This document shows, piece by piece, positions 1,202-2,904 of a stretch of DNA of 64,000 bases. This stretch comes from a virus. The stretch's first letter is position 1, and each line of letters begins with the position of its first letter. The stretch covers positions 1 to 64,000 of IMG/VR virus record IMGVR_UViG_3300046820_002568; one strand, written 5' to 3'. A model generated the notes under the pieces. That model was given only the letters and a program-made list of their open reading frames with translations. It was not told the DNA's origin and did no database searches. Both the position numbers and the translations under genes were made by a program.

Positions 1202-1274
1202 ATTTTCTTACTCTATAAATATTTTAAAAATAAGATAATTGCGAACATAAAATATTAAAGTGTCGTTAATAAAT

Positions 1275-1298
1275 AAAAAAAGGTGGGTTACCCCACCT
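1275..1298 (-). terminator. intrinsic terminator after tRNA
   Basis: AGGTGGG-GTAA-CCCACCT followed by U tract on minus strand. Confidence 0.85.
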
Positions 1299-1306
1299 GT
1301 CATTTG

Positions 1307-1379
1307 TTGCGGAAACTGGAATCGAACCAGATGTCTTCAGCTTATGAGACTGACGAGGAAACCATTTCTCCCTTCCACA
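1307..1379 (-). tRNA. tRNA-Met(CAT), initiator-like, CCA not encoded
   Basis: TGTGGAA/TTCCGCA acceptor stem, TCAGT-CTCATAA-GCTGA anticodon arm, CTGG-TTCGATT-CCAG T arm. Confidence 0.9.
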
Positions 1380-1392
1380 ATATTAAATTAAA

Positions 1393-2245
1393 CGAAGCCT
1401 GAGATTACAGCTTTGATTGAGTACCTTTAGAGTTATTATTTTTTCTACTCTTATCCACAAGATTTTGTCTTGTATTACTCATTGCCAATTGGTAAGGCCA
1501 ATCAATCCTTGACGATACAACTACTCTCTTACTACTCAGCTCTCTTCGAGAATGCCTTCCCAATTAATCCTTGCGAGATTAGAGGTTTTTCGTAAAAATA
1601 TAGTTCAACTTGGGGTCTCACTATGCTCAGAACATCTCTAAGCTATGTGGGCAACTTCCGTTGTACCGTGATGGACACTTTTCCTTTAATTATTGTTCAT
1701 AATTTTAGATTGTGTCGTGGATGTGTCAGAGTAGTGGTCCACCGTAAGCTCCGTCTCCTTTTGGGCGACGAAATACTAAACTACTCCGTGAGATATCCCT
1801 ATCTCCATACTTTCAGTTTACTTCATAAAGAGACCTTGGTAGGTCATCTTTAGGGGTAGTAGCGACACCACTCGTTCTCTACCTTACCTTTCGGTTTTAA
1901 GTCCCCTTCGGTATTGGAATCCGCAATTGTGTAGTTGGAGCTACATTTCTTACTTGATTCCTATGGGTTATTCTTATTGTTCTTCCGAACTCAACTTGAC
2001 AATCCACTTTGCCAAGTCACCTGACCACTTTCCCTACAGTGTTACCCTCGGTACTAAAGGTCTTGTGATATCCCACTTGTGTACTCGAGTTCAAATTCCC
2101 TTTCGGGTTTTCAAACCGCAACCTCCTCAACACGGGGGAGGTCACTTTATCCTACTTTCGTAGTTTATTTAAGGACCATACACGGCCCATTATCGTTTAT
2201 CAGTTATCATCACCCGAGGGTTACTTTCACTGAATGGATAATCTT
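1393..2245 (-). ncRNA. large structured ncRNA (~850 nt), GOLLD-like candidate
   Basis: No credible ORF, raised GC, many minus-strand hairpins (CCC-GAAA-GGG, CC-GAAA-GG, AATCTC-GCAA-GGATT, ACCTCC..GGAGGT); lies between strong promoters and a tRNA. Ends approximate; family not confirmed. Confidence 0.7.
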
Positions 2246-2247
2246 AC

Positions 2248-2277
2248 TTTTCAAAGAACTTTTCGGTCATTTCCGAA
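2248..2277 (-). promoter_or_regulatory. rrn-like boxB hairpin plus boxA antitermination element
   Basis: TTCGG-AAATGA-CCGAA hairpin followed by AGTTCTTTGAAAA just downstream of a promoter. Confidence 0.6.
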
Positions 2278-2285
2278 TTGTTTTA

Positions 2286-2517
2286 CAAATTTAAGTCAAA
2301 ATTTTCAATCTGTCAAATTTTTCTTAAACTTTTTTTTGAGATTCGAGACTTGTATCTTAATCGTTCTCCGTCTCAAATCTTTTACAAATATACGGCTAAT
2401 TTTTCAATCTGCCAAATTTATTTGTATTTTTTTTTAGATTTAACTTTCCGAGTATCTTTCATCACCTATAGGTGTCAAATCTTTTACAAATATACAACTA
2501 TTTTCTTAAAAATCAAA
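2286..2517 (-). promoter_or_regulatory. three tandem Bacteroidetes-type promoters (~100-bp period)
   Basis: TTTG-N20-TAAATTTG (2286-2317), TTTG-N20-TATATTTG (2385-2416), TTTG-N19-TATATTTG (2487-2517). Confidence 0.8.
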
Positions 2518-2904
2518 AATTATTTTACAAATAAAATCTTTTAAACTTTTATCCATATTAAGTTTTAACATTTCTTTTTTAGTATAGTATCCACATTCTG
2601 TATGTTCAAATCCATCTTCAGCATGCGATAAATTTGGTTCAATTTCATCATTAACCTCAAACAAATAAATGTTAAGTACATTCTTTAGTTTTCCAGACTT
2701 ATATCTTTTAATCTTACCCAAATACTTTATAGGTTCAACTATTTCTAGGTTTGTCTCCTCATAAAATTCTCTATAAGCCGCATCTTTAGGGTCTTCATTT
2801 TCTTCAACTCCCCCCATTGGTATTGCCCATTTTCCGCTATCCGACCTTTGACAAAGAAGTACTCTGTCTTCAAATTTTACTATAACACCTGAACTTTCTT
2901 TCAT
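2506..2904 (-). CDS. NUDIX hydrolase
   Basis: Nudix box GGVEENEDPKDAAYREFYEETNL. Confidence 0.9.
   Translation of the reverse strand: MKESSGVIVKFEDRVLLCQRSDSGKWAIPMGGVEENEDPKDAAYREFYEETNLEIVEPIKYLGKIKRYKSGKLKNVLNIYLFEVNDEIEPNLSHAEDGFEHTECGYYTKKEMLKLNMDKSLKDFICKIIFDF

What the first reader, a model, noticed from the sequence alone, without database searches (positions are those of the whole stretch)
1393..2245. ~850-nt structured non-coding RNA co-transcribed with a tRNA
Seen: the longest non-coding stretch in the window, GC-enriched and full of minus-strand hairpins with GNRA loops, nested stems (CCATT-CAGT...ACTG...AATGG) and repeated AGUA motifs. It is followed by tRNA-Met and a terminator. 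Known: GOLLD RNAs are about this size, phage-associated, tRNA-adjacent and of unknown function. It could be a GOLLD variant or a new class.
Basis: partly seen in the sequence, partly recalled or inferred. Interest (0 to 1): 0.7.

Follow-up and report, generated by a model that had tools for sequence, protein, structure and literature searches.

The report
GOLLD RNA gene in a large phage
The stretch encodes a full-length GOLLD RNA, a known giant phage RNA that in solved examples builds protein-free nanocages; it is an ordinary member of that family, made slightly more interesting by an rRNA-like control region and by two halves with different ancestries.

Summary
Window 1396-2242 (minus strand) is a canonical GOLLD RNA. 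Rfam RF02032 matches end to end at 294.9 bits (cut-off 150). The 5' half, which Rfam does not model, is homologous block by block to the cap domain of the cryo-EM GOLLD env-38. Of 195 predicted pairs, 87 show compensatory changes across 23 relatives. No ORF is conserved. A tRNA(CAU) lies 16 nt downstream, then a terminator.

Additional results:
- Three tandem promoters of Bacteroidota type, a small hairpin and an 11-mer, GTTCTTTGAAA, precede the RNA. The 11-mer resembles rrn boxA. In related phage loci it lies almost only in front of GOLLD, tRNA and tmRNA-like genes. Nus-type antitermination is therefore plausible but untested.
- The RNA is a mosaic. The 5' domain is 96% identical to one set of phages and the 3' core 99.7% identical to another.
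- Host signals point to Bacteroidota.

The function of GOLLD remains unknown and no expression data could be obtained. Verdict: a new member of a known kind, of modest interest.

The parts
2487..2517 (-). Distal promoter-like site P3 (TTTG-N19-TATATTTG), inside the third ~100-nt tandem repeat
   Evidence: Pattern scan. Repeat family D1. Sigma-70-type scan also hits here.
2385..2416 (-). Middle promoter-like site P2 (TTTG-N20-TATATTTG), inside the second tandem repeat
2286..2317 (-). Proximal promoter-like site P1 (TTTG-N20-TAAATTTG; also TTGACA-N17-TAAATT). Predicted start near 2280.
   Evidence: The same promoter is conserved in relatives' leaders.
2262..2277 (-). Small leader hairpin (TTCGG-AAATGA-CCGAA) at the predicted 5' end of the transcript; boxB-like in position
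   Evidence: Stem variants in relatives are compensatory: TTCGG/CCGAA, ATCGG/CCGAT, TGAGG/CCTCA, TTAGG/CCTAA, TAAGG/CCTTA.
2249..2259 (-). boxA-like 11-mer GTTCTTTGAAA in the transcribed leader
   Evidence: Only exact copy in the 139,882-bp record. Present at the same place in 63 of 74 GOLLD loci with enough upstream sequence. 10/11 match to the gamma-proteobacterial boxA consensus GYTCTTTAANA and to the GAUCUUUGAAA part of the B. subtilis rrn boxA.
1789..2242 (-). GOLLD 5' (cap) domain. Includes a 5' extension (2187-2242: stem CCATT/AATGG with an inserted hairpin) that lies upstream of where the env-38 cryo-EM construct starts.
   Evidence: Block-wise homology to the env-38 construct. Helices 2-20 carry compensatory changes. 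96% identity to L032/L005.
1396..1788 (-). GOLLD 3' domain: first hairpin about 1727-1788, linker about 1691-1726, 3' core 1396-1690
   Evidence: Rfam RF02032 positions 1-416/416, 294.9 bits, E 5.5e-85. Helices 21-33 covary. The core is 99.7% identical to L062/L074/L084/L115.
1380..1395 (-). 16-nt spacer between GOLLD and the tRNA; no terminator predicted in it
1306..1379 (-). tRNA with anticodon CAU. Position 1:72 is a U-A pair and there is no GGG/CCC run in the anticodon stem, so it is not initiator-like. Elongator Met and Ile2 cannot be told apart here.
   Evidence: ARAGORN. Rfam tRNA 44.2 bits. Stems read.
1274..1298 (-). Intrinsic terminator (7-bp G+C-rich hairpin plus T run) ending the unit

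Best explanation
Window 1396-2242 (minus strand) encodes a full-length, two-domain GOLLD RNA of about 850 nt. It sits on a 139,882-base fragment (CheckV completeness estimate 48%) of a large uncultivated phage that most likely infects Bacteroidota.

Shown here: family membership, the two-domain architecture, covariation in both domains, absence of coding potential, and the gene layout.

Inferred: (1) The unit is transcribed from three tandem promoters. (2) The nascent leader forms a small hairpin followed by a boxA-like GTTCTTTGAAA, which recruits host NusB/S10-type antitermination factors as in rRNA operons. That would protect this long untranslated transcript from Rho and help it fold. (3) RNase P cleavage at the tRNA(CAU) 16 nt downstream separates the two RNAs, and the terminator at 1298-1274 ends the unit. 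(4) By homology to env-38 GOLLD, the RNA assembles without protein into a closed multimeric nanocage, with 5' domains forming the caps and 3' domains the rings. (5) My best guess at the biological role, about one in three, is a cage or scaffold of the lytic cycle tied to the tRNA and translation machinery. The basis is the recurrent linkage to tRNA(CAU), tRNA arrays and tmRNA genes.
For: Identity:
- RF02032 matches its full length at 294.9 bits against a cut-off of 150.
- The 5' domain aligns block by block with the env-38 construct of Kretsch et al.. This includes the invariant hairpin with a GAAA loop (ACCGAAAGGT at about 1892-1883), which I read as the counterpart of env-38 L11a.

Structure:
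- On 23 relatives, 98.8% of cells are paired, against 38-44% when partners are slid.
- 87 of 195 pairs have changes on both sides, against 9-16 when slid and 35+-3 when shuffled (0/500).
- The loop I take to be L21a reads CGCAA here and GUCGA in four relatives. This is the GC/CG switch reported for bridge B8.

Not coding: the longest open frames differ in frame and length between relatives.

Layout. In most relatives the terminator directly follows GOLLD, and in 11 of 53 a tRNA(CAU) is inserted there.

Leader:
- The motif TTTG-N18-21-TAnnTTTG occurs 15 times in the window against 3.7+-1.9 expected, three of them here.
- The box lies at the same place in 63 of 74 loci and is kept where the flanks have diverged.
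- Of 54 unique occurrences in 2.29 Mb of phage loci, 39 lie within 30 nt of a GOLLD start, and two more (L006, L123) are GOLLD leaders with longer spacing. Four precede tRNAs, one a tmRNA-like 5' end, and four an unidentified element.
- It occurs once in this record.
- The B. subtilis rrn leader has the same arrangement, a small 5' hairpin followed by a boxA.

Host:
- No Shine-Dalgarno signal: 6.9% of ORFs against 8.9+-3.2% at random positions.
- A related GOLLD with the same box lies in the 634,780-bp phage LR745206.1. [quoted passage not shown]

Cage: env-38 is a D7 14-mer and Streptococcus agalactiae GOLLD a 12-mer.
Against:
- The boxA reading rests on sequence resemblance, position and distribution only. 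The boxA of Bacteroidota rrn operons could not be looked up here.
- The cultured Acinetobacter phage Herod has a GOLLD (225 bits) with no boxA-like motif within 6 kb. The leader element is therefore specific to this clade and not a general GOLLD property.
- The number of subunits per cage varies within the family (10, 12, 14) and cannot be predicted from sequence here.
- The hairpin I read as P11a is shorter than in env-38.
- The biological role of GOLLD is unknown in the literature read.
Confidence: 0.9

Rival explanations
1. The conserved GTTCTTTGAAA box is not a Nus-factor site. It could be a phage-specific element, such as the binding site of a phage regulator, a processing site, or a promoter-proximal element shared by the stable-RNA genes of this phage group.
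For: No binding or host rrn data. GOLLD in Acinetobacter phage Herod lacks any boxA-like motif. The common variant GTTCTTAGAAA changes a U in the conserved U-run. The box could be a module shared among these phages' RNA genes for reasons other than antitermination.
Against: - 10/11 identity to two independent boxA consensus sequences.
- Position about 20 nt into the transcript, directly after a small hairpin, as in the B. subtilis rrn leader.
- Found almost only in front of untranslated structured RNAs.
- One MAG locus labelled Woeseiaceae (L120) carries TGCTCTTTAACAA, which contains the E. coli rrn boxA consensus, ahead of a tRNA array that holds the first-hairpin motif of the GOLLD 3' domain. 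Rfam does not call a GOLLD there.
Confidence: 0.4
2. The cage is an anti-defence decoy or sponge. It would soak up a host RNA-binding or RNA-cutting defence protein during infection, and would not act on tRNA or translation.
For: Phage-borne; reported to rise during lytic growth. Very abundant expression is implied by three promoters. The RNA is better conserved (96% nt) than the neighbouring NUDIX protein (70.5% aa) in the closest relative.
Against: No defence or anti-defence gene was identified next to it. No partner is known. The repeated linkage to tRNA(CAU), tRNA arrays and tmRNA points rather to translation.
Confidence: 0.2
3. The region is a new RNA class unrelated to GOLLD, or only its 3' half is GOLLD and the 5' half is something else.
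For: Rfam models only the 3' domain, so the 5' half has no database hit.
Against: The 5' half lines up along its whole length with the env-38 5' domain. It is contiguous and co-conserved with the 3' domain in dozens of loci.
Confidence: 0.02
4. The stretch encodes a protein on one of the two strands.
For: Open frames of 76-106 codons exist in the window, and of 144 codons on the antisense strand in four close relatives.
Against: No frame stays open across relatives (31-144 codons, in differing frames). Substitutions are compensatory in stems. Indels in the alignment are not confined to multiples of three.
Confidence: 0.01

Closest known systems
GOLLD RNA env-38 (marine metagenome; cryo-EM 14-mer nanocage, PDB 9MEE; Kretsch et al., Nature 2025, PMC12286853)
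   Same: Two-domain architecture and similar length (833 nt against about 850 nt). Homologous 5' cap and 3' ring domains. A hairpin with a GAAA loop in the same place as L11a. Two hairpins that I take to be L21a and L21b, each with a GC palindrome in the loop. Next to a tRNA(CAU)/tRNA-Met.
   Different: Here the tRNA lies downstream; in env-38 the GOLLD is downstream of tRNA-Met. The window RNA has an extra 5' stem with an inserted hairpin (2187-2242) upstream of where the cryo-EM construct starts. The hairpin I read as P11a is shorter. The linker is about 35-50 nt. Assembly was not tested.
Streptococcus agalactiae GOLLD (700 nt, 12-mer, PDB 9L0R; reviewed in PMC12990946)
   Same: Same family and the same conserved 3' domain.
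   Different: The S. agalactiae RNA lacks P9, P11a-c and P21b. The window RNA has counterparts of these regions by alignment with env-38, so it resembles the larger env-38 type.
ROOL RNA (phage and prophage nanocage RNA)
   Same: Large phage-associated RNA near tRNA genes that forms protein-free cages.
   Different: Unrelated sequence and fold. No ROOL match in cmscan at E<=1.
rRNA operon leaders (E. coli boxB-boxA-boxC; B. subtilis 5' hairpin plus boxA, PMC13753749) and lambda nut sites
   Same: Tandem promoters; a small hairpin followed at once by a U-rich boxA-like sequence early in a long untranslated transcript that also carries a tRNA.
   Different: A phage RNA gene and not an rRNA. No boxC was recognised. 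Binding of Nus factors was not tested. The host's own boxA is unknown here.

Membership tests
GOLLD RNA (Rfam RF02032) | Covariance-model score above the curated gathering threshold over the conserved 3' domain | tested here: met
   294.9 bits against 150; model positions 1-416 of 416; E 5.5e-85.
GOLLD RNA (Rfam RF02032) | A 5' domain of the canonical (env-38 type) architecture joined to the 3' domain by a variable linker | tested here: met
   Comparison by eye, block by block, of the window RNA with the published env-38 construct. Conserved blocks run along the whole 5' domain.
GOLLD RNA (Rfam RF02032) | Helices supported by covariation in both domains | tested here: met
   87 of 195 pairs have changes on both sides. 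98.8% of cells are paired, against about 40% when partners are slid. 0 of 500 shuffles reach the observed values. Helices 2-20 (5' domain) and 21-33 (3' domain) both contribute.
GOLLD RNA (Rfam RF02032) | Phage or prophage location next to tRNA genes | tested here: met
   IMG/VR virus record. tRNA(CAU) 16 nt downstream.
GOLLD RNA (Rfam RF02032) | Loops that make the intermolecular bridges of the cage (GC/CG dinucleotide in L21a, L21b, GAAA in L11a) | tested here: inconclusive
   A hairpin with a GAAA loop is invariant. The loop taken as L21a shows the GC to CG switch in 4 of 23 relatives, and the next hairpin keeps a GC in its loop. Helix names were assigned by position without a structural alignment. 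My attempt to map the L20-J13/15 kissing loop was ambiguous.
GOLLD RNA (Rfam RF02032) | Self-assembly into a closed homo-oligomeric nanocage | not testable with these tools
   Needs in vitro transcription with mass photometry or cryo-EM.
GOLLD RNA (Rfam RF02032) | Expression, rising during lytic growth | not testable with these tools
rrn-type boxA antitermination leader | Sequence match to the boxA consensus | tested here: met
   GTTCTTTGAAA against GYTCTTTAANA: 10/11. Against the GAUCUUUGAAA part of the B. subtilis consensus: 10/11.
rrn-type boxA antitermination leader | Position in the transcribed leader, after a promoter and a small hairpin, ahead of an untranslated RNA | tested here: met
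   26-27 nt after the end of the -7 promoter box and 2-4 nt after the hairpin, in 31 unique leaders. The same box lies ahead of tRNA and tmRNA-like genes.
rrn-type boxA antitermination leader | Same motif in the host's own rRNA leaders | not testable with these tools
   The host is unknown. No Bacteroidota genome handle could be obtained.
rrn-type boxA antitermination leader | Binding of NusB:S10 and resistance to Rho | not testable with these tools
   Needs biochemistry or a reporter assay.

The most novel reading that the evidence does not exclude
In a widespread clade of large phages of Bacteroidota, GOLLD and the phages' tRNA and tmRNA genes are transcribed as rRNA-like units: tandem promoters, a 5' hairpin and a boxA. 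The host's Nus antitermination and chaperone machinery is thereby recruited to make and fold a cage-forming RNA. In addition, the cap (5') and ring (3') modules of the cage are exchanged between phages as separate cassettes while staying compatible.
Probability: 0.45. Interest if true: 0.55.

Novelty: new member of a known kind. Interest (0 to 1): 0.33.

Why it matters
GOLLD is among the largest bacterial or phage RNAs without a known function, and recent structures show that it forms protein-free nanocages. This copy adds no new class, but the comparison gives three usable leads.

- A conserved rRNA-like leader suggests how such a long untranslated RNA is made and folded in the cell. It also gives a simple handle (box mutants) for testing this.
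- The clean swap of the 3' core between otherwise near-identical RNAs is natural evidence that the two cage modules evolve independently.
- Unannotated GOLLD genes in cultured Acinetobacter phages offer a genetic system for the open question of function.

Tried and rejected
- Relatives: the genome search 'relatives' is not available for a virus record. I therefore could not inspect rRNA leaders of Bacteroidota genomes.
- Genome scan: the single genome-contig scan found only two MAG contigs (labelled Woeseiaceae and Pseudomonadota). Both are tRNA arrays carrying the first-hairpin motif of the GOLLD 3' domain, with no Rfam GOLLD call above threshold. It gave no information on the host.
- Phage protein families: PHROGs on neighbouring and large ORFs gave a NUDIX hydrolase upstream, a lysozyme-like protein, a DNA methyltransferase and an SbcC-like ATPase. 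Most other proteins had no family match. None explains GOLLD.
- Kissing loop: I tried to map the published L20-J13/15 intermolecular kissing loop onto alignment A1 by eye. The window fits (GAUGU with ACAUC) but relatives do not fit cleanly, so I dropped it.
- Generality of the box: I looked for the boxA-like motif in an independent GOLLD lineage with a known host, Acinetobacter phage Herod. None was found, so the leader element is not a general GOLLD feature.
- Literature: searches found no paper linking GOLLD to boxA or Nus factors, and none giving a Bacteroidota boxA.
- Other Rfam families: none matched in 1200-2600 at E<=1 apart from GOLLD, tRNA and a chance-level RalA hit.

Full report
**What is there.** The window is the first 64 kb of an IMG/VR virus record of 139,882 bases. 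G+C is 0.327 and CheckV's completeness estimate is 48%, so the complete genome is probably close to 300 kb.

On the minus strand, cmscan finds a complete match to Rfam GOLLD (RF02032) at 1396-1788. It scores 294.9 bits against a gathering score of 150, covers model positions 1-416 of 416, and has E 5.5e-85. A tRNA with anticodon CAU lies at 1306-1379. A G+C-rich hairpin with a T run at 1298-1274 follows it.

A permissive scan of 1200-2600 against all 4227 Rfam families returned nothing else except a chance-level RalA hit. ROOL, introns, RNase P and tmRNA are therefore excluded.

- This is the longest non-coding stretch of the window.
- G+C is 0.42-0.43 against 0.24-0.33 in the flanks.
- Hairpins with GNRA-type tetraloops number 9 against 2.0+-1.4 in shuffles.
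- AGUA occurs 14 times against 7.2+-2.4.
- The nested stem CCATT/CAGT...ACTG/AATGG is at 2237-2187.

**The 5' half.** Rfam models only the conserved 3' domain, so I collected relatives.
- Two short conserved motifs retrieved 54 and 72 stretches of IMG/VR contigs.
- The 5' half (window 2250-1691) is 73-96% identical to dozens of them.
- The supplementary table of Kretsch et al. (Nature 2025, PMC12286853) gives the GOLLD env-38 construct used for cryo-EM.
- Read side by side with the window RNA, conserved blocks run along the entire env-38 5' domain (its residues 1-420, the cap of the nanocage). Examples are the ...TACGAAAGTAGGATAAAGTG... block, the ...GTTGAGTTCGGAAGA.CAATAAGAATAAC.CATAG... block, a hairpin with a GAAA loop, and the ...GAAGTAA...TATGG.G.TAGGGATA... 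block that leads into the first hairpin of the 3' domain.
- The window RNA has an additional 5' stem with an inserted hairpin (2187-2242) upstream of the point where the cryo-EM construct starts. The hairpin with the GAAA loop is shorter here.

The RNA is thus a two-domain GOLLD of the env-38 type, about 850 nt long (1396-2242).

**Structure and coding potential.** I aligned 23 distinct relatives (A1).
- RNAalifold predicts 195 pairs.
- 98.8% of sequence-by-pair cells form standard pairs, against 38-44% when the 3' partners are slid by 1-3 columns.
- 87 pairs show changes on both sides, against 9-16 when slid and 35.4+-3.1 when shuffled. None of 500 shuffles reaches the observed values.
- Both domains contribute: helices 2-20 in the 5' domain and 21-33 in the 3' domain.
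- No open frame is conserved. The longest frames vary from 31 to 144 codons and sit in different frames in different relatives.
- The loop I take to be L21a reads CGCAA here and GUCGA in four relatives. This is the GC/CG palindrome switch that Kretsch et al. used as evidence for an intermolecular kissing loop.

**Transcription unit.** Upstream lie three copies of a repeat of about 100 nt. Each carries TTTG-N19/20-TAnnTTTG (2317-2286, 2416-2385, 2517-2487). This motif occurs 15 times in the window against 3.7+-1.9 expected. From my own knowledge it is the promoter consensus of Bacteroidota.

Two other observations fit a Bacteroidota host.
- ORFs of the record show no Shine-Dalgarno signal: 6.9% against 8.9+-3.2% at random positions.
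- A related GOLLD lies in the 634,780-bp uncultured phage LR745206.1. [quoted passage not shown] That this record is one of them is my inference from its length.

Freshwater phages of up to 331 kb that infect Flavobacteriia and relatives have been described (PMC9723584). Whether this phage belongs to them was not tested.

**The leader.** After the proximal promoter come a small hairpin (2277-2262) and the 11-mer GTTCTTTGAAA (2259-2249).
- With at most one mismatch, the 11-mer sits at the same position in 63 of 74 GOLLD loci that have enough upstream sequence.
- It is kept in leaders whose flanks are otherwise unrelated, and the hairpin stem changes in a compensatory way.
- In 2.29 Mb of phage loci, the three common variants occur in 54 distinct contexts. 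Thirty-nine lie within 30 nt of a GOLLD start, and two more (L006, L123) are GOLLD leaders with longer spacing. Four are 11-72 nt upstream of a tRNA, one is in front of a tmRNA-like 5' end, and four are in front of an unidentified G-rich element.
- In this record the exact 11-mer occurs once, here.
- The motif matches the gamma-proteobacterial boxA consensus GYTCTTTAANA at 10 of 11 positions (PMC5725501).
- It also matches the B. subtilis rrn boxA (AUGAUCUUUGAAA) at 10 of 11 of the overlapping positions. In B. subtilis the boxA likewise follows a small 5'-terminal hairpin and was shown to bind NusB (PMC13753749).

I therefore think it likely, at about one in two, that these phages use the host's Nus antitermination complex for their stable RNAs. 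That complex resists Rho and has been proposed to chaperone rRNA folding (PMC10250234).

Limits of this reading:
- There is no binding evidence.
- The host's own boxA could not be checked.
- The cultured Acinetobacter phage Herod has a GOLLD (225 bits) inside a tRNA array with no boxA-like motif in 6 kb. The element is therefore not general to the family.
- One MAG contig labelled Woeseiaceae (L120) carries TGCTCTTTAACAA, which contains the E. coli rrn boxA consensus, ahead of a tRNA array holding the first-hairpin motif of the GOLLD 3' domain. This is a single case, and Rfam does not call a GOLLD there.

**Mosaic ancestry.**
- From 2290 to about 1700, the window RNA is 93-100% identical to L032 and L005 in all but one 60-nt bin. 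That bin (about 2110-2051, 75%) holds a stem-loop that these relatives lack. Beyond about 1700, identity to them falls to 60-83%.
- From about 1690 to 1396, it is 99.7% identical to L062, L074, L084 and L115. Their 5' domain is only 91% identical, they lack the 5' extension, and they end with a terminator in place of a tRNA.
- The exchanged piece is almost exactly the 3' core, with one breakpoint at the end of the internal linker and the other at the 3' end of the RNA.
- This agrees with the published finding that the two domains fold and pack separately. It shows cap and ring modules being reshuffled in nature.
- The RNA's 5' domain (96% nt identity to L032) is better conserved than the adjacent NUDIX protein (70.5% aa identity to L032). 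Gene order around it is kept in relatives.

**The tRNA.**
- In 11 of 53 relatives with enough downstream sequence, a tRNA follows GOLLD within 60 nt. It always has anticodon CAU, although its sequence differs between relatives. The other 42 have none, and in many of these a terminator follows at once.
- In the window the gap is 16 nt and no terminator is predicted in it, so co-transcription is the simplest reading.
- Position 1:72 is a U-A pair and the anticodon stem lacks the three G-C pairs of initiators. The tRNA is therefore elongator Met or Ile2, and I cannot say which.

**Function.** The papers I read state that the function of GOLLD is unknown. They report the following:
- protein-free cages (14-mer for env-38, 12-mer for the Streptococcus agalactiae RNA);
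- a rise in expression during phage lysis;
- binding of ribosomes in pull-downs;
- tRNAs embedded in the linker of some members.

By homology I expect this RNA to form a cage of the env-38 type. My preferred role, with low confidence, is a scaffold or cage of the lytic cycle linked to tRNA and translation. The grounds are the repeated linkage to tRNA(CAU), tRNA arrays and tmRNA seen here.

**Verdict.** The leader element and the domain swap are modest additions that can be tested.

Noticed in passing
L122 (MW316732.1, Acinetobacter phage Herod) 2808-3176; also hits H3-H8: Cultured Acinetobacter baumannii phages (Herod, Bestia, AM24, YMC13/03/R2096, P577, Ab15) carry a GOLLD RNA inside their tRNA array. 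Herod scores 225 bits in Rfam. The stretch has no annotated feature in most of these records; in Ab15 it is called a hypothetical protein. These phages could serve as a genetic system for GOLLD.
   Followed up: partly
L123 (LR745206.1, 634,780-bp uncultured phage) 2441-2846, 1931-1941, 1372-1382: This huge phage genome has a GOLLD (287 bits). The same GTTCTTTGAAA box lies ahead of its GOLLD 5' domain, and a second copy lies 19 nt upstream of a tRNA.
   Followed up: partly
L056:4039, L012, L014, L022, about 270-390 nt upstream of the GOLLD leader box: In four loci the boxA-like 11-mer is followed, after a run of about 12 A/T-rich bases, by a conserved element CAGCAGGCGGGGGGCATGG. ARAGORN does not call it a tRNA. 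It may be another small structured RNA.
   Followed up: no
L041 11396-11471 and 8287-8713; L097 5052-5448: In some GOLLD loci a Pistol ribozyme (69 bits) lies about 360 nt from GOLLD. Phage-encoded tmRNA genes (75 bits) lie 2-3 kb away.
   Followed up: no
L089:5105 (exact 11-mer); L062, L065 and L077 (one-mismatch variants): The box, or a one-mismatch variant, directly precedes sequences that look like a tmRNA 5' end (GGGGGTAACTTGGAATTGACTGGC and similar). ARAGORN did not call tmRNA genes there.
   Followed up: no
window 2506-2904 (minus strand): A NUDIX hydrolase gene lies immediately upstream of the GOLLD promoters. tblastn finds it in 31 of the related loci, and in the loci checked it lies next to GOLLD (50-70% aa identity).
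   Followed up: partly
G000 139823-139882 (end of the record, outside the window): The last 60 bases of the record hold a direct repeat of about 27 nt (TAATTGAAGGAGTAACTGTTTTTGTTGG, twice). It may be an assembly end artefact or a tandem repeat.
   Followed up: no
L120 and L121 (MAG contigs labelled Woeseiaceae and Pseudomonadota): These contigs hold dense tRNA arrays with the first-hairpin motif of the GOLLD 3' domain sitting between tRNAs. No Rfam GOLLD call passes threshold, which fits GOLLD variants interrupted by tRNAs in the linker. L120 has TGCTCTTTAACAA about 1.1 kb upstream.
   Followed up: partly
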